From a virus (taxonomy: Duplodnaviria; Caudoviricetes), in IMG/VR virus record IMGVR_UViG_3300035136_000021, positions 1 through 56,882 of that record: a stretch of 56,882 bases of DNA; one strand, 5' to 3'. This document shows positions 20,045 through 56,614 of this stretch, piece by piece. Position numbers and translations under genes: made by a program. The notes beneath the pieces are model-generated. The model made no database searches, was not told where the DNA came from, and saw only the letters and a program-made list of their open reading frames with translations. Numbering within the stretch: position 1 is the first letter of the stretch; every line of letters begins with the position of its first letter.

Positions 20045-20060
20045 TGTTTCATGTGAAACA
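20045..20060. promoter_or_regulatory. parS: parS site (1 mismatch)
   Basis: TGTTTCATGTGAAACA vs consensus TGTTTCACGTGAAACA. Confidence 0.85.
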
Positions 20061-20070
20061 TATAGCATTT

Positions 20071-20500
20071 AGTTCCCTTAGTTCCCTTAGTTCCCTTAGT
20101 TCCCTTAGTTCCCTTAGTTCCTTTAGTTCCCTTAGTTCCCTGAGTTCCCTGAGTTCCCTTAGTTCCCTTAGTTCCCTTAGTTCCCTTAGTTCCCTTAGTT
20201 CCCTTAGTTACTTTAGTTCCCTTAGTTACTTTAGTTCCCTGAGTTCCCTTAGTTCCCTTAGTTCCCTTATTTCCCTTAGTTCCCTGAGTTTCTTTAGTTC
20301 CCTGAGTTTCTTTAGTTCCTTTAGTTCCCTGAGTTTCTTTAGTTCCCTGAGTTTCTTTAGTTCCTTTAGTTCCCTGAGTTCCCTGAGTTCCCTGAATTTA
20401 TTTAGTTCCCTTAGTTCCTTGAGTTCCCTGAGTTCCCTGAGTTTATTTAGTTCCCTTAGTTCCTTGAGTTCCTTGAGTTCCCTGAGTTTATTTAGTTCCT
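20071..20500. repeat. About 48 x 9-bp array (AGTTCCCT[T/G])n
   Basis: Read directly; CT[A/C]AGGGA on the minus strand. Confidence 0.95.
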
Positions 20501-20515
20501 TTTATCATACTATAT

Positions 20516-20544
20516 TTGACAATACGTTTGTATTTTAGTATAAT
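20516..20544 (+). promoter_or_regulatory. Consensus sigma-A promoter
   Basis: TTGACA-N11-TTTTAG-TATAAT. Confidence 0.85.
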
Positions 20545-20604
20545 ATAAACAATAAGTTAACAGATGTAATTTTCATGAAAATTCTGATACTGGGAGTGTT
20601 GATT

Positions 20605-20808
20605 ATGGATTTAAGTATTATTGAAAAAAGTATGACAAATATTAAACCAACAGAAGAACAAATTAAAAAAATTGAATCTTTACGTGAAGATTATAAAAGT
20701 TTAGCAAAATGTGTTAATGAAATATCTAAAGATAGCAGATATAAAAGTTTAGCTATTACAAGTTTAGAAGAATCGTTGATGTGGGCTGTTAAAAATATAT
20801 TGTTGTAA
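20605..20808 (+). CDS. Acb2/Tad1-hairpin family cyclic-nucleotide sponge candidate
   Basis: ATG 20605 after GGGAG; KPTEEQ...I..LR.....LA........SR..SLAIT.LEESLMWA. Confidence 0.72.
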   Translation: MDLSIIEKSMTNIKPTEEQIKKIESLREDYKSLAKCVNEISKDSRYKSLAITSLEESLMWAVKNILL

Positions 20809-20843
20809 TAAAGGAAGCTAAGAATTCTTAGCTTCCTTTATTA
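20806..20843. terminator. Perfect 38-bp palindrome with core AAGGAAGCTAAGAATTCTTAGCTTCCTT
   Basis: Same core repeated at 20901-20928 and 53313-53340. Confidence 0.75.
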
Positions 20844-20931
20844 TTAGGTGATGTTAGTTATCATACATCATGTCAAAAACATTAAATAATGTGAAGTATT
20901 AAGGAAGCTAAGAATTCTTAGCTTCCTTAGT

Positions 20932-21270
20932 ACTGAGACCTGAGGGACTGAGACCTGAGGGACTGAGACCTGAGGGACTGAGACCTGAGGGACTGAGACC
21001 TGAGGGACTGAGACCTGAGGGACTGAGACCTGAGGGACTGATGAACTTATGTGCTGATGAACTTATGTGCTGATGAACTTATGTTATGTGCTGATGGTAC
21101 TAAGGGACTAAGGGACTGAGACCTGAGGATTTATGTGCTGATGGTACTAAGGGACTAAGGGACTGAGACCTGAGGATTTATGTGCTGATGGTACTAAGGG
21201 ACTGAGGGACTGAGGGACTGAGACCTGAGGATTTATGTCCTGATGGTACTAAGGGACTGAGGGACTGATG
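20932..21270. repeat. Composite array: 7 x 15-bp ACTGAGACCTGAGGG, 16-bp units, then about 46-bp units containing CT[A/G]AGGGA
   Basis: Read directly. Confidence 0.93.
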
Positions 21271-21324
21271 ATTGTAATAAGAATGCATTTGATAACACCG
21301 ATTTATTGTAGTAGTTTTTTTAAT

Positions 21325-21340
21325 TGTTTCACGTGAAACA
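21325..21340. promoter_or_regulatory. parS: Perfect parS site
   Basis: TGTTTCACGTGAAACA. Confidence 0.92.
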
Positions 21341-21649
21341 TATAGTATTTAGGAAGCTGAGAACAAAAGTTTTTTTTAAGTTTTATATTTTTTTTTTTGT
21401 TATTTTTAATTTTTTGTAATTTTTTATTTTTTTTGATTTTTTAAAATTCTGGGAAATTATAGAAAATTTATTTTTATTTTTTCCGAGGTAGTGAAAATAA
21501 ATCTACGTAATATTTTTTCAATATACTTAAATAAATCCAAGAATTCAATAAACTTAAAGAATCAAAGAACTTAAAGAATTAATGAAATAAAAAAAAATCC
21601 AAAAACTTAAAGAATCAATGAACTAATGAACACAAGGAGAGGATTGACT

Positions 21650-22036
21650 ATGTTATCAAATACCTTTCAAATTATATTAAAGAAAATAGCCTGTAAAATG
21701 AATTTACAATTAAAAACTGTTGAAAATATTCTTAAGTATATAGAAAATATGAATATTGAAGATTATTTGTATGCAGAAAATTTAGAATCTAAATTTAAAT
21801 TAGACCAAAAAACTATTCTTAAAATATTAACTTTACTTGAAAAAGAAGATATTTTAAAAAAAGTATACAAATTATATTGTCCTAGATGTAATAATTTTAG
21901 TGATGATTCATATGAAACTCTAAAAGATTTAGAGGAATATGAGAATTGTGAAAATTGTGGTAATAAACTAATATCCAAAGATAATTTATATAAATATGTT
22001 ATTATATTTTTTGTGGTGAAAAATAATGGCAAATAA
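21650..22036 (+). CDS. Winged-helix + Zn-ribbon hypothetical protein
   Basis: AGGAGAGG RBS; L.LLEKE.IL...Y...CPRC ... CENCG. Confidence 0.6.
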   Translation: MLSNTFQIILKKIACKMNLQLKTVENILKYIENMNIEDYLYAENLESKFKLDQKTILKILTLLEKEDILKKVYKLYCPRCNNFSDDSYETLKDLEEYENCENCGNKLISKDNLYKYVIIFFVVKNNGK

Positions 22037-22166
22037 AAAAACTTTCTTTCATGAATATTATGAAAGTATGGGCAAAGATTTTTCAAAAATTTCGTTGTCA
22101 TTTAGTAAAGAAGTGAAAAGTCAAGTTAATTTAATAATTTAGAAAGGAGAATGCAAGGAGAGACTT

Positions 22167-22214
22167 AGTAGTCGCAATTCCTCTCACCACCTAAGATGTG
22201 GTAGTATCCTTGCG
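22167..22214 (+). mobile_element. IS200/IS605-like subterminal hairpin remnant
   Basis: GCAATTCCTCTCACCACCTAAGATGTGGTAGTATCCTTGCG. Confidence 0.5.
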
Positions 22215-22221
22215 AGGAGTG

Positions 22222-22647
22222 ATGAAATTAGACAAAGATATATATACAATTCCTGAAGTAGTTAGAATCTTAAGATTAAATGATAAAGAAGTGAGAGAAA
22301 TGTTAAGAAATAAAACTTTATCAGGTTTCAAGATGAATAATGGTGATTGGAGAATTAGTAAAGAAGCGATATTAATTTTTTTAAACGATAAAGAATATAA
22401 TATATTTAAAAATCTTGATGGTTATGTTATTAATATTTATCTAATACATAAAGACGTAGATTTATCTAAACTTAAAGGTAAAGATTTTACAAAATGTAAT
22501 TTAGATGATCATTTATTTTCAGATATTAAAAATAATGAAGTAAAATGTGTATTTGGCGGAGTAGAATTTATAAGGAAAGAAGAATTGAATAAATATATTG
22601 GATATACTTCAAGGAATAGAGAAGAAAACAGATATTATCAGTTATAA
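22222..22647 (+). CDS. Excisionase/MerR-like HTH (HTH_17) domain protein
   Basis: IYTIPEV..IL......V...L....L.GFK...G.WRI; start uncertain. Confidence 0.65.
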   Translation: MKLDKDIYTIPEVVRILRLNDKEVREMLRNKTLSGFKMNNGDWRISKEAILIFLNDKEYNIFKNLDGYVINIYLIHKDVDLSKLKGKDFTKCNLDDHLFSDIKNNEVKCVFGGVEFIRKEELNKYIGYTSRNREENRYYQL

Positions 22648-22957
22648 TTATGATAAAGAACTTAATATTCTAAAGACTTTAATATCTAATGATAAAAAAT
22701 TACAAGAACTTATTGAATTTTATGATAATTATATTATGGACAAATATGAAGATTTAACGACTTTGTTTTCATTTAAGAATTATGAATTGAATTTGATGTA
22801 TCTACAATCAAAAATTTATAAATACCATAGAGAAATTTATTATACTGGTATAAAAGATATTGAAAAATTTGTAATATATTATTTTGATAATTGTTATAAT
22901 AGTAATATAAATATTTATGATTATTTAAATATGATATATTTTACTATAAAATACTAA
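22598..22957 (+). CDS. Hypothetical protein
   Basis: ORF; start uncertain. Confidence 0.45.
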   Translation: MDILQGIEKKTDIISYNYDKELNILKTLISNDKKLQELIEFYDNYIMDKYEDLTTLFSFKNYELNLMYLQSKIYKYHREIYYTGIKDIEKFVIYYFDNCYNSNINIYDYLNMIYFTIKY

Positions 22958-23230
22958 CGAGACCTTAGAAAAAAAAAGACCTGAAAATATTTTAAGGTCC
23001 TTTTTTCCATTAGTATTTAAAAGCAGTATTTAAAAGTAGTCATTATGTAACTTATTTTTTTTTGAAAATCGCTAATTAAAATACTTGTTTTAATTTTTTT
23101 AAAAAATAGGGTAAAAAAGTAATTTCTTTATACTAGTTTATACATCATATGAACTAAATTAATTATAATATATAAGATTATATCTTGTCAATTTTGTTAT
23201 AATATAAATAAAAAAGGAGTACTTTATTAA

Positions 23231-23479
23231 ATGAATGCTTTAAAAATTGATGAATCTTGGTTTATTTCACTAAATAATTATGAATATTTAAATAAAAAAT
23301 TTACTATCTATAAGACTATAATGCATAAAGATACATGGTTACTTTCATGTTTAACTGAAAATATTACAGATTTTGACTTAAAAACTAATGATTTTAATGA
23401 AGCTTTTAACAAATCTATTAAAAGATTAGAAACTTTATCAAATAATGACAAAAGAAGAAGGAGATTTATAAAAAAATGA
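23231..23479 (+). CDS. Hypothetical protein
   Basis: AAGGAG RBS; coupled to the next gene. Confidence 0.55.
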   Translation: MNALKIDESWFISLNNYEYLNKKFTIYKTIMHKDTWLLSCLTENITDFDLKTNDFNEAFNKSIKRLETLSNNDKRRRRFIKK

Positions 23480-24174
23480 GTATAAATGAAAATATTTATA
23501 TGAAAATGATTAAAGAATCAAGGTATTTTATGACTATTTTACATTCAAATCAATGTGAAATATGTAAATTATCTGAAGAATTTAAGATAAAGATAAATTC
23601 AATGATTTTCAGAGATGTAAAACCTGTATTAATACAGTCTGAATTAATTAGATATTATCCGGAAAAATTTACTAAGAATGCTGATAAGATATTAGAATAT
23701 CATCAACAGTATATCAAATGTTTGATTGAAGATTTGAATATTAGGAAAATGTTCAAACATTTATCACATAAGATAAAAAGTATTAACAAATTAAATTCAA
23801 CAGATAAAGCTATATTAATTAATGAAATAGAATTAGAACTTAAAAAAGATAATGATATTTGTGATTTCAATGATCATTTGATAACTATGAAAAATAACTT
23901 ATTTAAAGAAACATTACCGTTATCATTAGCGCGGTTAAATTATGAATTAATCCATGGTATAACTGATAATATAAAAAACATTACTAATTCAGTGAATACC
24001 TTATGGAAAATGATGAATAATATACAAATAGTAGATAATATAGAAAATGGTATTGAAGATTTTGACAAAGTATCACAAGACAAAATAGTATCATTAGCCG
24101 ATAAAATAAAAGAGGCTACAAAAAAAACAATACCTGAAGAAACTGAAGAAACTGAAGAAGAAAAGAAAGGTTAA
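23476..24174 (+). CDS. Probable terminase small subunit
   Basis: Position directly upstream of TerL; helical; no diagnostic motif. Confidence 0.45.
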   Translation: MSINENIYMKMIKESRYFMTILHSNQCEICKLSEEFKIKINSMIFRDVKPVLIQSELIRYYPEKFTKNADKILEYHQQYIKCLIEDLNIRKMFKHLSHKIKSINKLNSTDKAILINEIELELKKDNDICDFNDHLITMKNNLFKETLPLSLARLNYELIHGITDNIKNITNSVNTLWKMMNNIQIVDNIENGIEDFDKVSQDKIVSLADKIKEATKKTIPEETEETEEEKKG

Positions 24175-24177
24175 ATT

Positions 24178-25710
24178 ATGGAATATCCTTATCCTACTAA
24201 ATATAATGATACATGGGAACTTGAAACCATAACCGTACGTGATATCTTTTGGCAAGCTAGTAAAAAAGAACGTATTGAACTTGCTAAAAGTAATCCATGT
24301 ATATTTGGTGAACAATATATAAAACCTTGCATTAAACAATGGATTTATAATACAGCTAAACATCAGTATTATATGCTGTATGAAGCATTGACTAATGACA
24401 ATATTGTAATTCATATCCCGATGGAACATGCAAAATCAACATGGTTCAGTTTAGTTTTACCATTGTGGTTTTTGATCAATGATCGAAACACTTATGGTTG
24501 TATATTGTCTAATACAGCAACACAAGCAACTGGATTTTTATCTGCTATAAAATGGCATATAGAACATAATGAAAAATTTAGAGAGGATTTTCCAGAAATA
24601 CGTCCTGATTATAAATCTAAATGGGCGGAAAATGAGATAAATATTATTCGAGATAAGGATAAACAAAGTAAAGATTATACCATGGTTGCAAAAGGGACAG
24701 GTAATGCTATTCTGGGAGCAAGATTTGAGTGGATTATAGCCGATGATATTTTAGATCTTGAAAATACAGCAACTGAAATCCAAAGAAATAAAGTGAGAAA
24801 ATGGTGGAATCAAACTGTAGATTCTAGAATTATAGAAGGAGGTCGAAAAATAATCATCGGGACATTGCAACATGATAAAGATTTGTTAGTTGAATTAGGT
24901 GAAAAAAAAGATATTTATAAATATATTAATTTAAAAGCATTATATAACAATAAAATTCCATTATGGGAAGAACAATGGAGTTTAAAAAGATTATTGTATA
25001 AAAAAGCTAGTATTGGAATTTTAGATTTTAACAAGACTATGCAAAATGACCGGGAATCTACACAAAATAAATCACTGGATCGTAAATGGTTAAATTATTA
25101 CGGTCCAACAGAACATTATAACTTTAAGATTCATAACCCTAATGTTAGAATATACATAGGTATAGATCCAGCGATAGCTGACGACAAGACAACTGCGGAA
25201 AAAAGACGATTAGATAAATTTGCTCTAATGGTTACTGGTTTCGATTTGACATCAAAGTTGATTTTTGTATGGGATTATTTACAAGGGTACTTTACATTTC
25301 CAGAACAGATTGAAATTATTGATAAACAATATAAAAGATATAAAGAAATTAATGTTGTAAAGGGTATAGGCATAGAACAAACTGCTTATCAAAAAGCGTT
25401 AAAACAACAGGCGTTTTTATTATCTTCACTACCTCCTATAAGAGGTGTAAATACAGGTACATCAAGTAAAGCAACAAGAATTGATAGTCTAGGCGTGTAT
25501 TTTCAGTCTAAAAGAATTTATGTCAAAAGATCTCATGATAGCTTGATAGATGAATTCGTGAGTTATGAACCAGGTGGGTTATCACCTAATTTATTAGATG
25601 CACTGTGCATTATAATAACAATGATCACAGGAGTATCTACTATATCAGATATAAAAGTACATACTAAAAATATTTTTAAAAATGAAAGGAGTTTTATAAC
25701 ACAATGGTAA
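24178..25710 (+). CDS. terL: Terminase large subunit
   Basis: HQ adenine motif, P.EHAKST Walker A, IIADD Walker B, IIGT coupling motif, IGIDPA nuclease. Confidence 0.92.
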   Translation: MEYPYPTKYNDTWELETITVRDIFWQASKKERIELAKSNPCIFGEQYIKPCIKQWIYNTAKHQYYMLYEALTNDNIVIHIPMEHAKSTWFSLVLPLWFLINDRNTYGCILSNTATQATGFLSAIKWHIEHNEKFREDFPEIRPDYKSKWAENEINIIRDKDKQSKDYTMVAKGTGNAILGARFEWIIADDILDLENTATEIQRNKVRKWWNQTVDSRIIEGGRKIIIGTLQHDKDLLVELGEKKDIYKYINLKALYNNKIPLWEEQWSLKRLLYKKASIGILDFNKTMQNDRESTQNKSLDRKWLNYYGPTEHYNFKIHNPNVRIYIGIDPAIADDKTTAEKRRLDKFALMVTGFDLTSKLIFVWDYLQGYFTFPEQIEIIDKQYKRYKEINVVKGIGIEQTAYQKALKQQAFLLSSLPPIRGVNTGTSSKATRIDSLGVYFQSKRIYVKRSHDSLIDEFVSYEPGGLSPNLLDALCIIITMITGVSTISDIKVHTKNIFKNERSFITQW

Positions 25711-26000: not shown

Positions 26001-26016
26001 AAAGGATATAAAATAA

Positions 26017-27903
26017 ATGACTACTATATATAACGCGAATGGGAAAGTATATAAAAAAATAAAACCTAAAATAAATGAATTAGGTGGTACTGGGAGATAT
26101 AGAAATCAAAGATTTCAAAGTACATTAGATACAGATGAATATTATAGTAGTTTGAAATTTCCTTATGATATAAATATATATAATAAAATGGGACGGTCAG
26201 ATGCTCAAGTACAAGCTGTTTTATTAATGATTTCTTTACCTATTAGAGCTACTCAATGGTTCATTAGACCATTAGACAAATCAAAAAAAGCTCAAAAAAT
26301 AGCTGAATATATTGATAAATGTTTATTTTCAGGAGTTAATAACGGATTGTATATGGGTTTTGATGAATTCATCAAGAATGTAACTACTATGTATCAATAT
26401 GGACATAGTGTTTTTGAAAAAGTTTTTGAAATTAAAAAATCGATGATAAAATGGAAAAAATTTGCTGTTCGACCTCAATCTACAATTTATGATATACATT
26501 ATGACGATGTAGGTGATGTTAATGGTATAAGTCAATATATGATTGATCAATCATGGAGACAACAATATATTGATATAGATAAGTTATTGATTTTTTCACA
26601 TAATATGGAACAAGGTGATATTAGAGGGGGAAGTATTTTAAGAGCTTGTTATAAACATTGGTATATTAAAGATTTTATTTTAAAAATCATGAATGTCGGG
26701 ATCGAAAGAAATTTAGTAGGTACACCAGTTATAAAGTTACCAGAAGGGTATACACAAGATGATAAAGAATTAAGTGATCAAATTGTTACTACTTTAATGA
26801 GTCATAATTTCGGTGGTATAAGGATGCCGGAATCTTTTATATTAGAAATGTTTGAAGGCAAAAGATCTTTGATTGATGTTTTACCATATTTGAAATATCA
26901 AGATCAAATGATTACGATGAGTATCTTAGCACAATTTATGCAGTTAGGTACTGATGGATCAAGTGGATCATTTGCATTATCTAGCGATCAAAGCAGATTG
27001 TTTTTAATGATGCTTGATGCAAGTGCTAAAAATATATCAAATATCATTAATGTGCATGCTATTCCGGAATTGGTTAATTATAATTTTGCAAGTGATTTAT
27101 ACCCGAAATTATGTTTTAAACCGATTGATTCTACGAAACTTATAAATACATTAAGTAGTTTAGTTAGTGGTAAAATCGTATTACCAGATGATGATTTAGA
27201 GGATTATATAAGAGATATGTTAGATATGCCTGTAAAAAATCCTGCTAAAACTCGTGAAGAATATGCATTAATTTTTGAAGAAAATACAGTGAAAAAGGAT
27301 GAAATCAATGAGTCTAGTGTAATTGATAAACAACAAAAATTAGAAAGTAATGATTTGAATAATAAATCTAACAATTCTAAAGGTCTTAATGATAAAAACG
27401 ATTCTAAAGATCTTATAGATAATAATCAAAAAGGATCAAAAAAACCTATCGAAACTAATAGTAAAAAGAAACAATATATGGATAAAATAAAGGATGATAA
27501 GATTAATTTAATTGAAGATGATAATGTGTATGATAATATTAATCATTATAAATCATTAATATATGGTTTATTTAATCAAAAACATAATGAATTTTACGAT
27601 TTATTTTTACCACAAGTTAAAAGGTTAAAAGAATCAGTAATGAATCGAGAATTAAAAGATATTAGTAAAATAAAAAGTGTTGGAAAAAATGATATCAAAA
27701 ATTATTTAAAATCAAAAATAAATAAGAATAGCTCATTTATGACTGAAGATTATTTTGAATCTTTGATAAATATTATCTCAAACGATATTTCAGAAAAATT
27801 AAAATCAACTTTTTTAAATGAATTTTTGTATTATTTTGATGAAAATAGTAAAACATTACATGATAATTTTGAATATGATGTATTAGAAGAATTTAATTTA
27901 TAA
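26017..27903 (+). CDS. Portal protein (DUF935 / Mu gp29-like) with a long C-terminal extension
   Basis: YGHSVFEKV, G.SILR..Y..W..K, ER...G.P, ILAQ motifs; follows TerL. Confidence 0.88.
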   Translation: MTTIYNANGKVYKKIKPKINELGGTGRYRNQRFQSTLDTDEYYSSLKFPYDINIYNKMGRSDAQVQAVLLMISLPIRATQWFIRPLDKSKKAQKIAEYIDKCLFSGVNNGLYMGFDEFIKNVTTMYQYGHSVFEKVFEIKKSMIKWKKFAVRPQSTIYDIHYDDVGDVNGISQYMIDQSWRQQYIDIDKLLIFSHNMEQGDIRGGSILRACYKHWYIKDFILKIMNVGIERNLVGTPVIKLPEGYTQDDKELSDQIVTTLMSHNFGGIRMPESFILEMFEGKRSLIDVLPYLKYQDQMITMSILAQFMQLGTDGSSGSFALSSDQSRLFLMMLDASAKNISNIINVHAIPELVNYNFASDLYPKLCFKPIDSTKLINTLSSLVSGKIVLPDDDLEDYIRDMLDMPVKNPAKTREEYALIFEENTVKKDEINESSVIDKQQKLESNDLNNKSNNSKGLNDKNDSKDLIDNNQKGSKKPIETNSKKKQYMDKIKDDKINLIEDDNVYDNINHYKSLIYGLFNQKHNEFYDLFLPQVKRLKESVMNRELKDISKIKSVGKNDIKNYLKSKINKNSSFMTEDYFESLINIISNDISEKLKSTFLNEFLYYFDENSKTLHDNFEYDVLEEFNL

Positions 27904-46235: not shown

Positions 46236-46988
46236 ATGGGGATAAAAATAAATGAAATATTAGTAATCTTAGATGATGGTCATGGCTTAGAAACTTTAGG
46301 TAAAAGAACACCTAAATATTCCAATGGTATACAAATAAAAGAAAATGTATTTAATCACGCAACAAAAGAACTTTTAATAAATGAATTAAATAAATTCAAT
46401 ATTAACACATATGACGTAAGTCCTGAAAGAACTGATACATCATTAAAAACAAGAACAGATAGAGCAAATTATAAAATGAATAAAAAAGAATATAATTATT
46501 ATATTTTTATTAGTATTCATTTTAATGCTATAGGGTCATATTGGAACGATAATGTAGGAGGTATAGAAACTTATCATTATCCAGGAAGCGAAAAAGGACA
46601 TATATTAGCTAAAAAAGTACATAATCAATTATTAAAAGGTACTGATTTAAAGGATCGACATGTAAAAAGTGCTAATTTTCATGTATTGAGAGAAACAAAG
46701 ATGCCAGCTATTTTATGTGAATGCGGGTTTATGAGTAATCATATAGAAGCTAATTTGATGAATAATATAAGATATCAAAAAGAATGTGCTAGAGAAATAA
46801 CATCAGGTATTTTTGATTACTTTGAAATAAAAAAACCTAATATCATATCAGAACTTGAAAAATTAACAAAAATAATAAGTCCTCAATATCATAAAACATG
46901 GATGAAACATTTTAATAACTATCCAAATTTAAATTGGTTAGGATTTATTAAAAGTACTTTAGAAAAAGGAAGAAAAACTAATGGGTGA
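46236..46988 (+). CDS. Endolysin, N-acetylmuramoyl-L-alanine amidase (Amidase_3)
   Basis: LDDGHG, E, SL..R...AN, FISIHFNA, VLRET.MPAIL.ECGF. Confidence 0.93.
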   Translation: MGIKINEILVILDDGHGLETLGKRTPKYSNGIQIKENVFNHATKELLINELNKFNINTYDVSPERTDTSLKTRTDRANYKMNKKEYNYYIFISIHFNAIGSYWNDNVGGIETYHYPGSEKGHILAKKVHNQLLKGTDLKDRHVKSANFHVLRETKMPAILCECGFMSNHIEANLMNNIRYQKECAREITSGIFDYFEIKKPNIISELEKLTKIISPQYHKTWMKHFNNYPNLNWLGFIKSTLEKGRKTNG

Positions 46989-47570: not shown

Positions 47571-48020
47571 TTATAAACTAATTAATAAAATAATTAATAA
47601 TATATTTAATATCCAAAAAATATTATATAAGAATTTATCAAATTTAATGGTGATATTCAGTTTACTACACCACATATCACCTATACAATGTGTAATATAT
47701 CCAGTAGAAAAACCTATCATAAATGTATTTCTTATTAGTATAATTAAAAAAATAGCAAATATAATACCAGTTTTACCATGTGTTAAGCCTCGATGTTTTA
47801 AAAATCCTAATTTTCTTAATTTATCATCAAAAAAAGGAATTGATTGAGAAATCCAAGATTTATGAGTATCAATATCTGGAAATATACTACCAAAAATTAA
47901 ACCGGGAATAAATTCAAAATACGATATATGATTAATATAATTTAAATTATAATATTTTGACATTGTTATAAAACTTAAACCAATAGTTATACTATTAGCT
48001 ATATGTGTTTTACTTAACAT
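47571..48020 (-). CDS. YdjM-family membrane metal-dependent hydrolase
   Basis: TH, GS.FPDID, HRGLTH, GY.TH..GD. Confidence 0.88.
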   Translation of the reverse strand: MLSKTHIANSITIGLSFITMSKYYNLNYINHISYFEFIPGLIFGSIFPDIDTHKSWISQSIPFFDDKLRKLGFLKHRGLTHGKTGIIFAIFLIILIRNTFMIGFSTGYITHCIGDMWCSKLNITIKFDKFLYNIFWILNILLIILLISL

Positions 48021-49173
48021 TATTTAACTCCTTATCTTTAGTTATTTTTGTTCTATTCCCATAAGATTCTAAAAACCCTTGATTCTTTAAATCATTAATG
48101 TATTTAGAAATTTCTCTTTGTCCTATTTCTAAATTTTCAGAACTTTTTTTAACACCTGGAATTATTGAATTTTTATTATTTTGTTTAATGTATTCAATAT
48201 ATTTATCTTTATTTGTTTGTTTGTTTAATATTATTACATTATTTTTTTTAAGTTCTTTAGATCCATTAAGTTCTTTAGATCCATTAAGTTCTTCAGATCC
48301 ATTAAGTTCTTCAGATCCATTAAGTTCTTTAGATCCATTAAGTTCTTTAGATCCATTAAGTTCTTCAGATCCATTAAGTTCTTCAGATCCATTAAGTTCT
48401 TTAGATCCATTAAGTTCTTTAGATCCATTAAGTTCTTCAGATCCATTAAGTTCTTCAGATCCATTAAGTTCTTCAGATCCATTAAGTTCTTCAGATAACA
48501 TTTTAGTACTATACATTAATATTTGTAATATAGTACCAATTAATAAAAATAATAAAAATATCAAAGTATTACTTTTAATATTTGTTATTTCTTCTAATTT
48601 TAAAATACTATTAGAAATACCTGTTATTTTTATTTTTTTAACAACTGTTTTTTCAGGTTCTTCAAGTTCATTTAATTTTAATTGTATAGATTCTTTATAA
48701 TCTATTAATTTTTGTTTTGCTTGGTCATATTGTTCAATTATTTTTTCTTTTTTTTCCCAACTAGGTATTTGATAAATTTTAATATATTCAGTTATATCAG
48801 GATAATTATTTATATCTTTTTTAGCATCATTTAAATCAATTTTTAAAGCTTTTTTTTCTTCTATATATATTTTATATTTAGGATTTTTAAAGGTCTTATA
48901 TTGACTTTTAAATGCATTATCAATGATATTAATACCATTAGATACAAAACCAAATAAAGAAATTAATGTTGCAAAAAAACAAATTATAATCATTAAAAAT
49001 TTTAACTTAATATTCTTAATATTCTTAAGTTCATTAATATATAACCACATTGATAATTCTAAAATAATAATAACAATAACTAAAATCCAATGTATTTCAA
49101 TATAAAAAGATATACTGAAAATTAAACTAGTAAATAATACTATTATAGATAATATTTTAAAAATATAAGACAT
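48010..49173 (-). CDS. Multi-TM membrane protein with coiled coil, S[EK]ELNG repeats and C-terminal winged helix
   Basis: 3+1 TM segments; C-term IG....SK....LKNQGFLE. Confidence 0.7.
   Translation of the reverse strand: MSYIFKILSIIVLFTSLIFSISFYIEIHWILVIVIIILELSMWLYINELKNIKNIKLKFLMIIICFFATLISLFGFVSNGINIIDNAFKSQYKTFKNPKYKIYIEEKKALKIDLNDAKKDINNYPDITEYIKIYQIPSWEKKEKIIEQYDQAKQKLIDYKESIQLKLNELEEPEKTVVKKIKITGISNSILKLEEITNIKSNTLIFLLFLLIGTILQILMYSTKMLSEELNGSEELNGSEELNGSEELNGSKELNGSKELNGSEELNGSEELNGSKELNGSKELNGSEELNGSEELNGSKELNGSKELKKNNVIILNKQTNKDKYIEYIKQNNKNSIIPGVKKSSENLEIGQREISKYINDLKNQGFLESYGNRTKITKDKELNNVK
48248..48495. repeat. About 13 x 18-bp coding tandem repeat AGTTCTT[T/C]AGATCCATTA
   Basis: Read directly. 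Confidence 0.95.
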
Positions 49174-49310: not shown

Positions 49311-51725
49311 TTATATTTTTAAATTAAATTCATTTGAGGATTCATAATCTTTTATGAATTCATCATTTATTTTTATTCTTTTAAAACCTCTTTGATGTTT
49401 TTTATCAAAGATTTCGAGATTTTTTGAAAAAATCACACTAGGAAATTTTGAATGCATTTCTTCAATGAAATTATTTGTTTTCATTTTTGCGGAATATTTA
49501 TTGTTCAATAGTTCTATGCAAAAATATTTATAATATTTCATCATATCTTTTTGTAAAATCATGTCATTATCAAATGTTGTTATAGTACAACAACTAGTAA
49601 TAAAATCAATTACAGGCGAATCAATGATGCTATAATGATCTTTCAGTAAGTTATTTTCTTCAACTTCTGAAAAATTTAAATTATTTTTCATAAGTCTTTT
49701 TAATCCTTCAACCGCCCATGTCAAAACACCTTGAATATTAAATTTATCAATTAAATTTTTGTCTTGTAAATTTTTAGGACAAACGTTATAAAAAGGGATT
49801 ATCAACATTCTATTAAAAAACTCTTTTGATTTATCTCTACTTGGTGGAAATCTATTCATTGAGAATAATAACCTTGAAGTATTTCTTTGAAATATAGGAT
49901 CTTTACCTTTTTTTTCGAATCTCATGTAATCGTCTCCTGTCAAAAGATTGACAATACTTGAATCTTCAATAGGTAATGCTGGGATATCACCACAAATATT
50001 AACTAATGTGTTTCTAAGAGGTGCAGTATTAAATTTTGAATTTTTGTTCGTTAGATCTTGTAATGACATTGCACTCGTTTGATTTTCACCTATTAATCGT
50101 TTCAAAACTTCTAAAATTACAGATTTTCCACAATCACCAGGTCCATATAAACAGAAAAACTTTTTTGCCCTATTGTTGTTAATTAAACAATAACCAAAAA
50201 TTTCTTGAACTATTTTTTGTTGTTCCTGGCTTAAAGTTTCATTTAAAAACTTTAACCAAACATTGCAATTTATAGTTTTATCATAATCGTAATTTATTAT
50301 GTAAGTATTTTTAAATTCTGGAGATTTGTCAATAACTTTAAGGTTATTATATCCTAAAGATGTTTGTAATATCACATTCTTAAGATTTATTATGTTATTG
50401 CATGTATTGAAATGTTTACTTGACATAAAATTTCTTAAGAGTTGATTATATACCTCAGTTACATAATTATCTTTTTTATATTTATTGTTGTATATACTTG
50501 GTAAATGATTTTCTATTATTTTTTTAAGTTCATAAGGTTTTATATTTTTAAAGTAACCAAAATCATCATATATTAATAATTCGTGTTCTGTATTATACAC
50601 ATAATGTTCATAGATCAAATGATTTCTAAGGATCGTCAAATCTATTTCATATTTACCATTATTAAATATTACCCAATCATAATTTAAATCATTTTCAAAG
50701 CTAAAATCTACATTAAGATCAAAAGCTTCATTTATTTTTTTACAAGATTGTAACATGGTACATTTATCCATATGCATTACAAAGTCTATTATACTACCAC
50801 CCTTTTTGCATCCAAAACAATAAAAAGAATTATCACTTAAATAAAATCGAAACGATGGGGTATTATCTTCATGATCGGGTAGTGGACAATTCATGTTTTC
50901 ATTATCATTAAGTTCTATTTCGTAAAGTCTTAAAATTTCTTCAATAGATACTTTTGATTTTATATAATCAAAAATATCATTTTCATCTAATGATTTATTA
51001 CGTTTTTTTTTATCAACATTTTGAAAGATTTTTGATATATCAAAATGTCGATATTCTTCAAATCTTTTGTATATTTTGATTACATTGTTATTTAATTTTC
51101 CAATTTTCTTAGGATTAAAATTTTTATATACATTTCCTGTAAGTATGATGCAATGATTATTATTAAAAAATTCAATTCCAGATTTATTAGATAATTCTTT
51201 ATATTTTATATGTATTTTTTTCATTTTTATTGATAATATTTTTAAATTATTCCATTTGATAGAGTTTTCAAAAATAATATGTAAACCTTTAAAACTTTTA
51301 GAATATTCTATGTAAGGATTCATATTACTTACTTGATCTACAATATCTTGAGCAAAATCATATAAATTATTATTATTATCTATACAATCATCTAAATCTA
51401 TTACAAAAAAATTATTATGCAAACTTAAAGTATAATATAAGTTATTAATATTATTAGATGTTATATTATCAAAAGAATTAAAGTTCTTGTGATCTATACC
51501 ATTTACATTATATTTATCCGTATTACAAGGAGCTCCAAATTCATTTGAATATAACCAACTTTTAGATTCTTTCAATTGATAGGGTATATTTTTTATAGTT
51601 TTATGCGATATGTGATTTTTCATAAATCGTTTCTGTTTATTATTTTTTTCTTTACCTAAAACTTCAAAAGGACTTATATCAATTGTTTCTATATCTTTTA
51701 TTTTTTCCATGGTATTATTACCCAT
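49311..51725 (-). CDS. Primase-helicase: prim-pol + CHC2 Zn finger + P4/D5-type SF3 helicase
   Basis: IDLDDC, E.S.S..GLH; CPLPDH...FYCFGC; LYGPGDCGKS Walker A; RM.IIPF. Confidence 0.9.
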   Translation of the reverse strand: MGNNTMEKIKDIETIDISPFEVLGKEKNNKQKRFMKNHISHKTIKNIPYQLKESKSWLYSNEFGAPCNTDKYNVNGIDHKNFNSFDNITSNNINNLYYTLSLHNNFFVIDLDDCIDNNNNLYDFAQDIVDQVSNMNPYIEYSKSFKGLHIIFENSIKWNNLKILSIKMKKIHIKYKELSNKSGIEFFNNNHCIILTGNVYKNFNPKKIGKLNNNVIKIYKRFEEYRHFDISKIFQNVDKKKRNKSLDENDIFDYIKSKVSIEEILRLYEIELNDNENMNCPLPDHEDNTPSFRFYLSDNSFYCFGCKKGGSIIDFVMHMDKCTMLQSCKKINEAFDLNVDFSFENDLNYDWVIFNNGKYEIDLTILRNHLIYEHYVYNTEHELLIYDDFGYFKNIKPYELKKIIENHLPSIYNNKYKKDNYVTEVYNQLLRNFMSSKHFNTCNNIINLKNVILQTSLGYNNLKVIDKSPEFKNTYIINYDYDKTINCNVWLKFLNETLSQEQQKIVQEIFGYCLINNNRAKKFFCLYGPGDCGKSVILEVLKRLIGENQTSAMSLQDLTNKNSKFNTAPLRNTLVNICGDIPALPIEDSSIVNLLTGDDYMRFEKKGKDPIFQRNTSRLLFSMNRFPPSRDKSKEFFNRMLIIPFYNVCPKNLQDKNLIDKFNIQGVLTWAVEGLKRLMKNNLNFSEVEENNLLKDHYSIIDSPVIDFITSCCTITTFDNDMILQKDMMKYYKYFCIELLNNKYSAKMKTNNFIEEMHSKFPSVIFSKNLEIFDKKHQRGFKRIKINDEFIKDYESSNEFNLKI

Positions 51726-51729
51726 ATAA

Positions 51730-51906
51730 TCACTCCTTTTCATAGTCTATTTCATCAATTAAATGTTCGATTATTTCAGTCATGGTTAAATTATTAGTTT
51801 CACTCATGATTTTTAATTTTTCAATAGTAGTTTCTTTTAATCTAAAATTAATCAGTCTTTTTTTATTTTTTTCGCGATATTCCTTAATATTTGATATAAC
51901 ACTCAT
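51730..51906 (-). CDS. Ribbon-helix-helix (CopG-like) regulator
   Basis: INFRL......L...S.....T.TEIIE.LI; directly upstream of the rep gene. Confidence 0.7.
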   Translation of the reverse strand: MSVISNIKEYREKNKKRLINFRLKETTIEKLKIMSETNNLTMTEIIEHLIDEIDYEKE

Positions 51907-51999
51907 ATTTTTAACACCGTCCTTTATTATTTGATATTTCTTATTATACAGCATTATTTACATTATGTATATACACCTTGTAAATATAATATGGTTATT

Positions 52000-53230: not shown

Positions 53231-53310
53231 TTAAAAAAAAGCATGTATTAAAAAAGTATATATGATATAATACAAATTGGATAAAATTTTAATTATTAAC
53301 AAAAAAAAAT

Positions 53311-53342
53311 CAAAGGAAGCTAAGAATTCTTAGCTTCCTTTG
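53311..53342. terminator. Perfect 32-bp palindrome ending the minus-strand operon
   Basis: CAAAGGAAGCTAAGAA|TTCTTAGCTTCCTTTG. Confidence 0.75.
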
Positions 53343-53368
53343 TTTCAAAATAATTCTGATTTGTTTAA

Positions 53369-53617
53369 TTATGTTTTGATATCAAATATAGATTCTATAA
53401 ATAATATAAGTTTATTACCTATTACAATTCCTTTATTTATATCATTCACAAACGCTAATAATATACAACTAATTAATATTTGTATTGATATGTTAATCCA
53501 ATTATCACCTTTAACTAAAGATTTAATAACACTTAAAAACATACCTATCACACAAATTACAAATAATAAAGGATTCAAATTATTTAATATATTATTAGTA
53601 TTATTTATAGCATCCAT
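53369..53617 (-). CDS. Small 2-TM membrane protein (pilin/TcpD-like topology)
   Basis: AGGAG RBS; two hydrophobic helices. Confidence 0.6.
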   Translation of the reverse strand: MDAINNTNNILNNLNPLLFVICVIGMFLSVIKSLVKGDNWINISIQILISCILLAFVNDINKGIVIGNKLILFIESIFDIKT

Positions 53618-53688
53618 TTAAATCACTCCTAAAAAATTTTGATATATTAAAAATATTATATCAAAATTCATACAATATATCAAACTAA

Positions 53689-54468
53689 TTATTTCCTAAT
53701 ATAGAAAATATCATTGAAAATATCATTAAAACTAAGATCAAAAAATTTACAAGTATTCACTATATCTTTATACGTAAATGTCGATTTATTATATAATTTA
53801 TTATAAACATGAGGGGTTGTATAACCCAAACATGTCTTAAAATCTTTTATTTTTTTTTCTTGTTTCTTACATAAATTTTTAAAATCTTCAAAATTTATGT
53901 ATAAATTTAACAAATTTATATCTTTTATTTCATTTATTAATTCTACATTTGTATTTTGCCCAAATATTGTATTATTTATTAATTTAACAGTTGGACAAAA
54001 TACATCATTTACTTTTAAATTCAATTTCAACAATAACTTTATACCTTCTTCTAACGTTATTTTAGTTTTTTGATTTATTTTATCGTAAACTGTTACTCTT
54101 TTTTTACCCCATAATTTTTCAATATCTTTTAATTTTAAATTATGTCGCTTAAATAGTGATCTTAAATATTCATTATTTATATTATATTTATTTGATTTTT
54201 CATAGGGTAATGAGTTTAAAATTTTTGATTCGTTTAATACTAAATTTATTTCAGATATAGTTGGTGCAAATAAATTCAATATATTCATTTTCAACATGTC
54301 TGATATGACAATACCTTCGTAAATATATATTAATGAATAACCTGAGAACTTTATATTTAAAGCATTAAGCGTCAAATTAAGATTATTAGCTATATCTTTT
54401 TTGTTAATATTTTTTAATTTTATTATTTTATAAAGATATTTGTTATTATATGTATAATATCTATTCAT
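53689..54468 (-). CDS. Regulator with three tandem Cro/XRE-like HTH domains
   Basis: Three repeats ending in ...N[DL][LVI]F, each with a K..N/G HTH turn; AGGAG RBS. Confidence 0.7.
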   Translation of the reverse strand: MNRYYTYNNKYLYKIIKLKNINKKDIANNLNLTLNALNIKFSGYSLIYIYEGIVISDMLKMNILNLFAPTISEINLVLNESKILNSLPYEKSNKYNINNEYLRSLFKRHNLKLKDIEKLWGKKRVTVYDKINQKTKITLEEGIKLLLKLNLKVNDVFCPTVKLINNTIFGQNTNVELINEIKDINLLNLYINFEDFKNLCKKQEKKIKDFKTCLGYTTPHVYNKLYNKSTFTYKDIVNTCKFFDLSFNDIFNDIFYIRK

Positions 54469-54497
54469 AAAATCACTCCTTTTTAATTTATATCTGA

Positions 54498-54599
54498 ATT
54501 ATACTAAAATTTTTACAATAAGTCAAAAGACATTTTATGTTATTATATTTGACATATTGTAAAAATTTTATTATGATTATAATTATAATCATAATAAAA
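54498..54599. promoter_or_regulatory. Back-to-back divergent promoters with a 34-bp palindromic operator candidate
   Basis: Minus: TTGACT-17-TATAAT (54526-54498); plus: TTGACA-17-TATGAT (54549-54577); palindrome 54566-54599. Confidence 0.75.
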
Positions 54600-54637
54600 A
54601 TATTAAAAATATTAAAAATATTAAAAAGGGTGATCAT

Positions 54638-56614
54638 ATGAAAAAAACTTTTTTAGATGAATATTTAAATGATCTTGTAAAAACATATAAAATGAGAAAA
54701 AAAAATAAAGATATAAGCGACGTAATTTATTTAAATAATATAAATAAAATATTTGCATATAAAGTATATAATAAATTGAAATTGAACCATAGGAAAAATA
54801 TTTTAAAATATTCAACTATTTGTGGAATCTTAAGTTTTTTAGGTATTCAATATTTCGAATTACCTATAATTTTAGATTTGTGTGTTTCTTTATCATTTAC
54901 TTTATTAATAATTAAGAAAATTAATGAATTAAAATATACTATAGTTTTGTATTATAAAGAAAAATTTAAACAAATTAATTTTTGTAAAGAAAATCAAGCA
55001 CCAAAATTGTTAGGGTTTCATAGAAATAATAATAATAAAGAAGTATATTATTTCAGGACAATGTTACCTTTGATTCATTGGAAAAATAATATAGAAAAAT
55101 TAGAAATGATATTTTCTAAATATATTATAGATATAAATAATCATAAAGGTAAATTAAATACCATTGAACTCACATTATCTAATAAAAAAGAAACTTTAGA
55201 TTTAAAAAGTTCTAAAGTTTCTAATGATGTTAAAATCCAAAAATTTTTTGAATTAAAAAATATAGATTGTAAAATTATGAATTATAAAATTAAAGAATAT
55301 CAAGAAATTATAGATTTTAATACTAGTACTGATTTTAAAGATATTAGTAAATACATCAATGATTTACAAATAAAATGTAAATTATCTAAAATATTTTTAG
55401 AACCTGGAGATATCGGAGATTACAAACTATTGATCAATAAAAAAATAAAATTAATAGATTTTTATGAATTTTACAATTCAGGTAAAATAAAACTTAATGA
55501 AAAAAATAATATAAGTCTTGGAATATCTTCAAATTCTGAGATTCAATATTTAGACATTTACAATATTATACATTTGTTATTGGCTGGTACGACAGGTGGT
55601 GGCAAATCTAACACATTAAATACTATCTTGATATCTCTTTATTTGTCAAATAGGAAAAATATTGCTTTTATTTTACTAGATCCAAAAAAAGCTGAATTAA
55701 AAAAATATAGACATTTACCAAATACTGTTTATTCAGGTGATTTTGATAATATGTTGATATTGTTGAAAGAAGCTGAAAAAGAATTAAACAGAAGAGAAAA
55801 TATAATTGATTCGGATGATTTTGTAAAAGATATTGAAGCATGGAATCGTAAATATCCAGATAATAATATGCATTATATTGTGATAGCTATTGAAGAAATA
55901 GCAGATTTATTAAGTAAAGAAAAAAATAATGAAAATAATGAAGAATTTAAAAGATTATTAAAAAGATTCGCTCAAGTTGGGAGGTCTTTAGGATTTCGAT
56001 TAATTTTGTGTACTCAACATCCAAGAGCTGATATAATTGATACACCAATCAAACTTAATTGTTTGACACGTTTAGCATTCAGTTGTGATAATACAAATAG
56101 TTCAAAGCTTATATTAGACAATAATTTAGCGATCAATCTTAAAAAAGGCGAGAGTGTATTAAAAAATAATGGTTATACATTTCTTAAAATCTTTTATATT
56201 AATGATAAAAAAGATTATGTAACTATAGAATATTTAAAAAAATTATATTCTGAAAATATTAATGAATCTGTGAAACTTATGATATCTAATTTTGAAAATA
56301 GTATAGAATCTAAAATAAATGAACCTAAAATTAATGAACCTAAAATTAATGAACCTAAAATTAATGGATCTACACTCACTATTAAAATAAATAATTGTTT
56401 CGATTTATTAAATTTTTATAAAGAAACTAAAAATAACGATAATTCTATAAAATCATTAAACGAAACTGTAAAGTATACTGATAAAGGGCGAACAACAATA
56501 AATAAAATGAGAGAAGAATTAAAGAATCAAGGATATCTTGAAACAAAAGGTGTTGGAAAAAATAAGAAAATGTATATAACAAATCTTGATAAACCTTTGA
56601 TTAGAATTATGTAA
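54638..56614 (+). CDS. FtsK/SpoIIIE-family DNA translocase: 2 TM, ATPase, C-terminal winged helix
   Basis: HLLLAGTTGGGKS, LDPK..EL, IEEIADL, GRSLG..L..CTQ.P; KINEP linker; LKNQGYLE. Confidence 0.9.
   Translation: MKKTFLDEYLNDLVKTYKMRKKNKDISDVIYLNNINKIFAYKVYNKLKLNHRKNILKYSTICGILSFLGIQYFELPIILDLCVSLSFTLLIIKKINELKYTIVLYYKEKFKQINFCKENQAPKLLGFHRNNNNKEVYYFRTMLPLIHWKNNIEKLEMIFSKYIIDINNHKGKLNTIELTLSNKKETLDLKSSKVSNDVKIQKFFELKNIDCKIMNYKIKEYQEIIDFNTSTDFKDISKYINDLQIKCKLSKIFLEPGDIGDYKLLINKKIKLIDFYEFYNSGKIKLNEKNNISLGISSNSEIQYLDIYNIIHLLLAGTTGGGKSNTLNTILISLYLSNRKNIAFILLDPKKAELKKYRHLPNTVYSGDFDNMLILLKEAEKELNRRENIIDSDDFVKDIEAWNRKYPDNNMHYIVIAIEEIADLLSKEKNNENNEEFKRLLKRFAQVGRSLGFRLILCTQHPRADIIDTPIKLNCLTRLAFSCDNTNSSKLILDNNLAINLKKGESVLKNNGYTFLKIFYINDKKDYVTIEYLKKLYSENINESVKLMISNFENSIESKINEPKINEPKINEPKINGSTLTIKINNCFDLLNFYKETKNNDNSIKSLNETVKYTDKGRTTINKMREELKNQGYLETKGVGKNKKMYITNLDKPLIRIM

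What the first reader, a model, noticed from the sequence alone, without database searches (positions are those of the whole stretch)
20045..56614. Candidate system: chromosome-mimic segregation/transfer module (host-type parS + polar motif + phage FtsK/SpoIIIE + membrane partners)
Seen: two parS sites without ParA, ParB or integrase; G-rich arrays pointing outward from the parS locus; an FtsK/SpoIIIE ATPase with a C-terminal winged helix, divergent from a triple-HTH regulator and a 2-TM protein; and a second membrane protein ending in a similar winged helix (LKNQGFLE vs LKNQGYLE). Known: Spo0J/ParB loads at parS near oriC; SpoIIIE/FtsK read polar SRS/KOPS octamers; phi29 uses parS for spore entrapment; Streptomyces TraB pumps dsDNA after binding 8-bp repeats. 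Inference: a plasmid-like prophage anchored by host ParB and pumped directionally into the forespore, daughter or a neighbouring cell by its own translocase. FtsK genes occur in other Firmicutes phages, but I know of no description of this combined cis-site architecture.
Basis: partly seen in the sequence, partly recalled or inferred. Interest (0 to 1): 0.88.

Follow-up and report, generated by a model that had tools for sequence, protein, structure and literature searches.

The report
Phage parS island and separate FtsK-like pump
A 57-kb bacterial virus carries two copies of the host chromosome's centromere site beside odd repeat arrays, and elsewhere a membrane DNA-pump gene, but comparison with relatives suggests these are separate features rather than one machine.

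Summary
The sequence features are real. The window is a whole ~57-kb siphovirus record (GC 24.6%) with its own replication genes and no ParA, ParB, integrase or resolvase. Two host-type parS sites (one perfect, one with 1 mismatch; 0.10 expected) flank inverted G-rich 8/9/15-bp arrays and an Acb2-like anti-defence gene. A 658-aa membrane FtsK-like ATPase ends in a modelled winged helix, and a 387-aa membrane protein has a related one.

The proposed single "chromosome-mimic" system is not supported as a conserved module:
- The array words occur 0 times outside the locus, so they are not KOPS/SRS-like.
- The winged helix is not an FtsK gamma domain.
- Five related records (four lineages) carry an FtsK-like gene, four of them this family. 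None has a parS or a G-rich array.
- Of 35 other parS-bearing viral records, 0 have FtsK_SpoIIIE over cut-off and 2 have ParB_N.

parS lies within 2 kb upstream of the large-terminase gene in 13 of 18 such loci. One unrelated phage also has an 8-bp x20 array abutting its parS.

Best reading: a host-ParB-recruiting island of the phi29 kind, plus an independent early-region DNA pump of unknown role. The host is unresolved.

The parts
20045..20060 (.). parS-1, 1 mismatch to TGTTNCACGTGAAACA, inside the 31-bp direct repeat 20042-20072
21325..21340 (.). parS-2, perfect 16-bp palindrome, inside the 31-bp direct repeat 21322-21352
20069..20499 (-). Left array of 47-48 units of 9 bp. Read on the minus strand the unit is GGGAACTAA. 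23 units are perfect and the array degenerates towards the centre. It holds all 4 canonical G-quadruplex motifs of the genome.
20575..20808 (+). Acb2/Tad1-hairpin gene (77 aa). It has its own 12/12 promoter at 20516-20544 and two 24-bp palindromic terminator-like hairpins at 20813-20836 and 20903-20926.
   Evidence: (PF24729, 4e-14)
20932..21268 (+). Right arrays: 15-bp ACTGAGACCTGAGGG x7.3, 16-bp x2.9, and 47/55-bp units built of ACTAAGGG / ACTGAGGG
17502..20040 (.). 2.5-kb stretch without ORFs, carrying TTAGGCAAA..TTTGCCTAA dyads and a 12/12 promoter at 19830-19857 that reads towards parS-1
21626..22036 (+). 136-aa protein with a winged helix plus a CxxC..CxxC ribbon, just downstream of parS-2. 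The Pfam hits are weak. Look-alike clusters are commonest in Bacillota.
23476..25710 (+). Packaging genes: a 232-aa small-terminase candidate (assigned by position, with homologues in G001 and C5) and the large terminase (phrog_38, 1.8e-63)
54638..56614 (+). 658-aa FtsK-like ATPase. N-terminal long helices (membrane anchor read by eye), FtsK/TcpA-like motor, disordered KINEP-repeat linker at 561-580, C-terminal winged helix at 587-647.
48010..49173 (-). 387-aa membrane protein with ELNGS/KELNGS repeats and a C-terminal winged helix related to that of the FtsK-like protein. No homologues found.
47571..48020 (-). YdjM-family membrane hydrolase-like gene downstream of the 387-aa gene
   Evidence: PF04307, 3e-16
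53369..54468 (-). 82-aa hydrophobic ORF and 259-aa HTH protein, divergent from the FtsK-like gene
49311..51954 (-). Primase / D5-type helicase (810 aa) and an upstream 74-aa Arc/RHH-like ORF. This is the replication module, which lies near the FtsK-like gene in the window, G001 and the mini-elements, though not in C5.
1..375 (.). 17-bp tandem array that continues at 56776-56882. The assembly breaks inside it. It lies about 160 bp downstream of the FtsK-like gene.

Best explanation
The window holds two independent features of one virus, not one machine.

(1) A cargo island sits between the early/replication genes and the packaging operon. It carries two copies of the host chromosome's ParB loading site. 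The phage encodes no ParB, so the sites most likely load the host's ParB (inferred). ParB in turn engages the host ParA/SMC apparatus. Unintegrated phage DNA would then be positioned and inherited like a chromosome origin region: carrier state, or spore entrapment if the host sporulates. This is the phi29 strategy in a siphovirus.

The inverted 8/9/15-bp arrays are local iteron-type arrays, not dispersed polar signals. I take them to be either a binding platform for a phage DNA-binding protein or a structural barrier next to parS. This step is inferred and weak.

(2) The FtsK-like protein belongs to a distinct family with a membrane anchor, an FtsK/TcpA-like motor and its own non-gamma winged helix. 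The family sits in the early/replication regions of related phages and in 15-kb mini-elements, with or without parS. It is probably a membrane-bound, sequence-guided double-stranded DNA pump. Its target and purpose are not known.
For: - The parS pair is far above chance.
- No ParB, ParA, integrase or resolvase was found (Pfam and PHROGs).
- phi29 uses 5 parS sites and host Spo0J for spore entrapment (PMC2731898, passages).
Of 35 such records examined, 2 have ParB_N, and 1 of the 10 that are >=90% complete does.
- 18 of the 80 parS loci hold a TerL-like frame. In 13 of those 18 a parS lies within 2 kb upstream of it (11) or at its 5' edge (2); about 3.6 would be expected if placement were uniform.
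- The window's island is also upstream of the packaging operon.
- In an unrelated complete phage, G093, an 8-bp x20 array starts 4 bp after parS, upstream of a phrog_38 TerL.
- Independence of ftsK: 0 of 5 related records with an FtsK-like gene have parS or G-rich arrays, and 0 of 35 parS records have FtsK_SpoIIIE over cut-off.
- Family definition: 16 full-length members were aligned, with a conserved C-terminal helix-turn-helix. The model has pLDDT 81.5. Foldseek matches the FtsK motor at 6e-24 and the TcpA coupling protein at 2e-23.
Against: - No host is known, so no cognate ParB could be checked.
- Binding by ParB is wholly inferred.
- Spo0A boxes, which phi29 also needs, are not enriched (3 found, 3.03 expected).
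- The phage has its own polymerase, helicase and primase, and no lysogeny gene was identified. A long-lived extrachromosomal state is therefore unproven.
- The recurrent position upstream of the terminase gene could instead mean a packaging role.
- Co-occurrence tests show that ftsK and parS are not a conserved pair. They do not show that the two do not cooperate in this one phage, where the array/parS architecture is unusually elaborate and two membrane proteins share a winged helix.
- Some IMG/VR 'viral' records with parS may be misclassified cellular DNA.
- Several relatives share descent: G005/G006, and L140/L163/L166.
Confidence: 0.5

Rival explanations
1. First reader's single system. 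ParB anchors the parS island, the inverted arrays act as polar loading signals, and the phage's FtsK-like pump, with the 387-aa membrane partner, reads them through its winged helix. It then moves the phage genome directionally into a forespore, a daughter or a neighbouring cell.
For: - The arrays diverge from the centre and each points at a parS.
- Two membrane proteins share a related winged helix.
- The nearest folds of that winged helix are iteron and centromere binders (RepA_N, TubR), though all at E >= 0.024.
- TraB reads direct 8-bp repeats in clt (PMC4447253, passages).
Against: - The array words occur 0 times outside 20040-21345.
- The winged helix is not a gamma domain (hhalign probability 0.15%; no PF09397 hit).
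- ftsK lies 33 kb from the island, or about 20 kb across the junction.
- 0 of 5 related records with an FtsK-like gene have parS or such arrays.
- 0 of 35 parS records have FtsK_SpoIIIE over cut-off.
- The 387-aa partner has no homologue anywhere.
Confidence: 0.1
2. The island is the packaging or terminus region, or an origin. The arrays, and perhaps the palindromes, would be bound by the phage's own small terminase or initiator. Their identity with host parS would be secondary.
For: - The island lies directly upstream of the packaging operon.
- parS lies within 2 kb upstream of the TerL-like frame in 13 of the 18 parS loci that hold one.
- G093 has the same layout, with 47-bp iterons beside it.
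- A 2.5-kb ORF-free stretch with dyad repeats adjoins the island.
- The left array is the only G-quadruplex-capable DNA in the genome.
Against: - The exact 16-bp host consensus is kept in phages of GC 0.37 to 0.57 with unrelated flanks. This points to a conserved host reader rather than diverse phage proteins.
- The closest relatives (G001, C5) package with a 64-66% identical TerL and have no parS or such arrays.
Confidence: 0.2
3. parS acts against the host or for gene control. It could be a decoy that titrates host ParB and disturbs chromosome segregation. Alternatively it could be a ParB-clamp domain whose spread is bounded by the arrays, insulating or timing the anti-defence cassette and the late operon.
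For: - The arrays sit between each parS and the Acb2 cassette, which has its own promoter and terminators.
- In G093 the array abuts parS on one side only.
Against: - Two sites are few for titration.
- No tool result bears on ParB spreading or silencing here.
- Established knowledge of chromosomal ParB gives only weak silencing (recalled, not from a call).
Confidence: 0.1

Closest known systems
phi29 spore entrapment through host Spo0J/ParB and phage-borne parS (PMC2731898, passages read)
   Same: A phage without its own ParB carries host-consensus parS sites. The proposed use is host segregation machinery acting on phage DNA.
   Different: The window is a 57-kb siphovirus with a terminase, not a 19-kb protein-primed podovirus. 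It has 2 sites in one island flanked by tandem arrays, not 5 sites. Spo0A boxes are not enriched. A spore-forming host is not shown.
FtsK/SpoIIIE with KOPS/SRS (motifs as quoted in PMC8190038, passages read)
   Same: The motor fold matches (Foldseek 6e-24, TM by target 0.66-0.75). The protein appears membrane anchored. A C-terminal winged helix is present. G-rich 8-mers are present.
   Different: No gamma domain. No PF17854 alpha-domain record. Two rather than four N-terminal helices. The G-rich words are tandem and confined to one locus rather than dispersed and skewed.
Streptomyces TraB and clt (PMC4447253, passages read)
   Same: An FtsK-like pump whose C terminus recognises a cis locus made of direct 8-bp repeats. 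This is the architecture most like the FtsK-like family here.
   Different: No sequence relation was tested beyond the shared motor. There is no evidence for cell-to-cell transfer. The element is a tailed phage with a full virion module. The 8/9-bp arrays are 33 kb from the gene.
TcpA-type conjugative coupling proteins (pCW3; PDB 6o1x)
   Same: Short membrane anchor plus an FtsK-like ATPase. Foldseek E 2e-23.
   Different: No relaxase or type IV secretion genes were seen in any scan. The extra winged helix is not part of the matched TcpA chains.
FtsK-family module of Bacillus cereus-group and other phages (PMC3335513, passages read; phrog_1358)
   Same: A phage-borne FtsK-family ATPase of untested role. 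phrog_1358 matches at 5.9e-54.
   Different: GenBank phage hits cover at most 67% of the protein at under 30% identity. This family's winged helix and two-helix anchor set it apart.

Membership tests
Chromosomal-type parS (ParABS centromere) | 16-bp palindrome matching TGTTNCACGTGAAACA | tested here: met
   One perfect site and one with 1 mismatch. 0.10 expected, and 0 of 100 shuffles reached the count. The consensus itself is recalled, not from a call.
Chromosomal-type parS (ParABS centromere) | Cognate ParB (and ParA) available | tested here: not met
   None in the phage. The host is unknown, so a host ParB could not be examined.
Chromosomal-type parS (ParABS centromere) | ParB binds and spreads from the site | not testable with these tools
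   Needs EMSA or ChIP.
phi29-type spore entrapment | Spo0A boxes that shut down the lytic cycle | tested here: not met
   TGTCGAA found 3 times against 3.03 expected.
phi29-type spore entrapment | Spore-forming host | not testable with these tools
   Host unresolved. The endolysin is nearest to those of Bacillales phages at 47% identity. A relative sits in a MAG titled Gammaproteobacteria. TerL was not found in 60 relatives of that MAG, apart from one weak hit at 4.8e-5.
FtsK/SpoIIIE proper | RecA-type motor with Walker A | tested here: met
   PF01580 at 3e-22. Invariant GxxGxGKS. Foldseek 6e-24.
FtsK/SpoIIIE proper | Gamma winged helix (PF09397) | tested here: not met
   No Pfam hit at E 0.01. 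hhalign against 31 gamma domains gives probability 0.15%, E 0.39. No row described as FtsK among the rows shown to rank 50.
FtsK/SpoIIIE proper | Alpha domain and four-helix membrane anchor | tested here: inconclusive
   PF17854 is absent from the precomputed domains, yet Foldseek aligns 385-411 columns to the FtsK motor. The model shows two long N-terminal helices. No transmembrane predictor was run.
KOPS/SRS polar motifs | Dispersed over the replicon with strand skew that switches at the origin | tested here: not met
   The 8/9-mers occur 0 times outside 20040-21345. AAGGGA, the one array hexamer also found outside (6 copies), and GGG runs sit mostly or wholly on the plus strand on both sides of the locus.
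TraB/clt transfer | FtsK-like pump with a C-terminal DNA-recognition domain | tested here: met
   This is resemblance of architecture only.
TraB/clt transfer | Direct 8-bp repeats bound by that domain | not testable with these tools
   Arrays exist, but binding is unknown. Relatives with the gene lack them.
TcpA-type coupling protein | Accompanied by a relaxase and mating-channel genes | tested here: not met
   None among the 60 ORFs scanned.

The most novel reading that the evidence does not exclude
In this phage the parS pair and the two inverted arrays form a built mini-centromere. Host ParB nucleates on it, and the phage's own membrane-anchored pump and its 387-aa partner read it through their shared winged helix. 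Together they would act as a TraB/clt-like or SpoIIIE/SRS-like device that moves viral DNA directionally into a daughter cell, a forespore or a neighbour. A weaker but likelier novelty is that parS, sometimes with an abutting short-period array, is a recurrent and undescribed element upstream of phage terminase genes.
Probability: 0.1. Interest if true: 0.85.

Novelty: new variant of a known kind. Interest (0 to 1): 0.5.

Why it matters
If host ParB is indeed loaded here, the phi29 trick of riding the host's chromosome-segregation machinery is not a curiosity of one small phage family. It would be a widespread habit of tailed phages that encode no partition proteins, and that bears on carrier states, persistence and spore carriage in nature. 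The placement of parS just upstream of terminase genes, and the array abutting it in two unrelated phages, are concrete patterns that can be tested. The FtsK-like family with its own winged helix, shared by phages and 15-kb mini-elements, is a defined target for asking what phage-borne FtsK pumps do. A 2012 paper called that question open (PMC3335513), and my four literature searches aimed at phage parS or phage-borne FtsK found no answer to it.

Tried and rejected
- Close DNA relatives in GenBank phages: none (megablast).
- The FtsK protein as a single query found nothing in viral contigs or genome contigs.
- The genome search with the FtsK protein found nothing in G001. My BLASTP then found a distant FtsK-like ORF there (29% over 170 aa), so the earlier blank was a sensitivity miss.
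- The array 18-mer hit 3 IMG/VR stretches. On inspection these are short 2-4-copy repeats in unrelated contigs of GC 0.34-0.64. About that many hits are expected for an 18-mer in a collection of this size (my estimate), so I rejected them as evidence.
- Rfam: no family in the window. tRNAs: none.
- A general link between parS and an adjacent array is weak: 4 of 111 sites have an array within 60 bp against 1.5 expected. Two of the four are not a close parallel: L116's lies in a coding repeat and L136's has only 3.3 copies of a 7-bp unit.
- Host assignment through the MAG that holds relative C5 failed. TerL was found in 2 of 61 genomes: the MAG itself and one weak hit at 4.8e-5.
- The one sequencing run holding the locus is labelled wetland metagenome. 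It may be the source sample, so it is not independent support.
- The protein atlas gave only unnamed clusters for the 136-aa protein.
- The 387-aa protein has no homologue (its low-complexity repeats may have hurt the word search).
- Supplementary files of papers were not consulted. Those of PMC8190038 and PMC4447253 might bear on motif lists.
- Literature: searches found no description of the combined architecture, nor of parS upstream of terminase genes. Subscription papers are not covered.

Full report
WHAT THE WINDOW IS

The window is the whole of one virus record (56,882 bp). IMG/VR classes it as having direct terminal repeats, but those 'repeats' are a 17-bp tandem array at both contig ends (1-375 and 56776-56882). 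Closure and copy number there are therefore uncertain. GC is 24.6%.

PHROGs and Pfam show a siphovirus:
- large terminase 24178-25710
- portal 26017-27903
- protease 31584-32714
- major head protein 33114-34049
- tape measure 39181-41895
- endolysin 46236-46988
- own replication set: helicase 4623-6341, Gp2.5-like SSB 6872-7594, DNA polymerase 7688-10327, primase/D5-type helicase 49311-51743 on the minus strand

No close DNA relative is in GenBank phages.

There are two parS sites, one perfect and one with one mismatch, against 0.10 expected. Each lies inside a 31-bp direct repeat, 1280 bp apart.

Between them lie, in order:
- a 9-bp array of 47-48 units (TRF 47.9 copies) whose G-rich strand is the minus strand
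- an Acb2/Tad1-hairpin gene with a perfect sigma-70-like promoter and two palindromic hairpins
- 15-, 16- and 47/55-bp arrays whose G-rich strand is the plus strand

Six-frame searches found no ParB_N, Phage_integrase, AAA_31, Resolvase or CbiA, with controls ringing. Scans of 60 ORFs found none either.

The FtsK-like gene (54638-56614) matches PF01580 at 3e-22. Modelled with 16 family members, it has pLDDT 81.5 and a C-terminal helix-helix-helix-hairpin domain at pLDDT 84-91. The domain modelled alone gives pLDDT 85.

The 387-aa membrane protein aligns to that domain with hhalign probability 72.6%, E 3.2e-5.

THE ARRAYS ARE LOCAL, NOT POLAR SIGNALS

The 8/9-mers of the arrays occur 16 times on the plus strand and 18-23 times on the minus strand inside 20040-21345, and 0 times elsewhere. 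AAGGGA, the one array hexamer also found outside (6 copies), and GGG runs lie mostly or wholly on the plus strand on both sides of the locus. There is therefore no polarity switch in the genome at large. This is unlike KOPS/SRS, which are dispersed; the motifs are quoted in PMC8190038.

The left array holds all 4 canonical G-quadruplex motifs of the genome.

THE PUMP IS NOT FtsK PROPER

It lacks a gamma domain:
- no Pfam hit
- hhalign of the family's C terminus against 31 gamma domains gives probability 0.15%
- Foldseek of the domain alone gives no hit at E <= 0.001. The best hits are RepA_N initiators, TubR and MarR/ArsR/GntR-type proteins.

The motor matches both FtsK (6e-24) and the TcpA coupling protein of pCW3 (2e-23).

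An exhaustive profile-free search found 42 representatives at E <= 1e-30. Of the best hits, 15 that matched over most of the query, in most cases through the C-terminal domain, were chosen and aligned with it (16 rows). The C-terminal helix-turn-helix is conserved among them.

CO-OCCURRENCE TEST

I fetched or searched five related records that carry an FtsK-like gene.
- G001: 56.6 kb, complete, TerL 66% identical. Its FtsK-like ORF is distant.
- G004: 39.1 kb.
- G005 and G006: 15.6 and 15.3 kb, near-identical mini-elements with an FtsK-like gene, a tape-measure-like gene, a primase and a 29-bp x9-17 array.
- G007:C5: a 70.3-kb contig, phage-like throughout, in a MAG titled Gammaproteobacteria. 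TerL is 64% identical, the family member scores E 1e-203, and an Acb2-like gene is present.

None has parS at <=1 mismatch. The one parS in the MAG is on another contig. None has G-rich short-period arrays (TRF).

I examined 35 of these records: the 17 with two or more sites and 18 longer ones, out of 80 loci returned. Two have ParB_N. None has FtsK_SpoIIIE over the cut-off; one has sub-threshold matches. The same search on the window rings at 1e-23. parS and ftsK are thus doubly dissociated.

A PATTERN THAT EMERGED

With a TerL profile built from the window, G001 and L150 and iterated on the 80 parS loci, 18 loci hold a TerL-like frame.
- In 11 a parS lies 1-2000 bp upstream of it.
- In 2 more it lies at the frame's 5' edge.
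- In 3 it lies 3-4.7 kb upstream.
- In 2 it lies only downstream.

Uniform placement would give about 3.6 of 18 within 2 kb upstream. The flanks are mostly unrelated and GC runs from 0.37 to 0.57. L140, L163 and L166 share descent, and the multi-site loci L126, L165 and L177 may too.

In G093 (54.5 kb, complete, GC 0.50) an 8-bp x20 array begins 4 bp after parS. It sits in a 1.3-kb ORF-free stretch upstream of a 167-aa / 252-aa / TerL (phrog_38) operon, which is the same position as in the window. Over all sites the parS-array adjacency is only weakly enriched: 4 of 111 against 1.5 expected.

INTERPRETATION

The island is best read as a host-ParB recruiting element of the phi29 kind (PMC2731898), sitting in the cargo-rich gap before the packaging operon. 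The role of the arrays is open. The FtsK-like gene is an independent early-region gene of a distinct family. The single-system reading stays possible for this one phage but has no comparative support.

Host and lifestyle are unresolved:
- The endolysin is nearest to those of Bacillales phages at 47% identity.
- Look-alike clusters of the 136-aa protein are commonest in Bacillota.
- One relative is binned with a gammaproteobacterial MAG.
- Spo0A boxes are at chance level.

LIMITS

- Transmembrane helices were judged by eye and from the model.
- All binding steps are inferred.

Noticed in passing
window 17509-17568 and 22167-22226: A 60-nt inverted repeat (77% complementary) brackets the whole ORF-free stretch plus the parS island and the 136-aa gene. 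The 22-mer core occurs only at these two places. It could mark a mobile cassette or a structured RNA element.
   Followed up: partly
G005 (L090) and G006 (L091), whole records: These are 15.6- and 15.3-kb elements classed as complete, at GC 0.25. Each carries an FtsK-like family gene, a 943-aa tape-measure-like gene (49% identical to G001's), a primase and a 2.6-3.1-kb ORF-free stretch with a 29-bp x9-17 array. They may be satellites, plasmids or assembly products.
   Followed up: partly
L150 11566-11750 (record G093): An unrelated complete phage has a perfect parS followed after 4 bp by an 8-bp x20 array (TGAGAGCC-type units), beside three 47-bp repeats and upstream of its terminase operon.
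   Followed up: partly
L106-L185 (80 IMG/VR loci with a perfect parS): parS lies within 2 kb upstream of a TerL-like frame in 13 of 18 loci that hold one. 33 of 35 records examined lack ParB_N.
   Followed up: partly
window 20084-20284, minus strand: All 4 canonical G-quadruplex motifs of the genome lie in the left array. There are none on the plus strand.
   Followed up: yes
window 3175-3741 and 20575-20808; G007:C5 3269-3454: The window has two Acb2/Tad1-hairpin genes, one fused to an N-terminal extension. The relative C5 has a 47%-identical copy at a different place.
   Followed up: partly
window 19830-19857: A 12/12 sigma-70-type promoter reads towards parS-1 and the left array, with a hairpin at about 19970-20005 in between. 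It may make a short RNA.
   Followed up: no
window 48248-48496 and 56306-56366: In-frame tandem repeats sit just before both winged helices: ELNGS/KELNGS x14 in the 387-aa protein and KINEP x4 in the FtsK-like linker. The linker is disordered in the model.
   Followed up: partly
window 17836-18634: Four to five TTAGGCAAA..TTTGCCTAA dyads score as terminator-like on the minus strand. Relative C5 has 21-bp arrays of a similar dyad at both contig ends.
   Followed up: no
G004 23496-25542 (L093): In G004 a 75-aa homologue of the N terminus of the window's HTH_17 protein (22198-22647) sits directly upstream of the FtsK-like gene.
   Followed up: no
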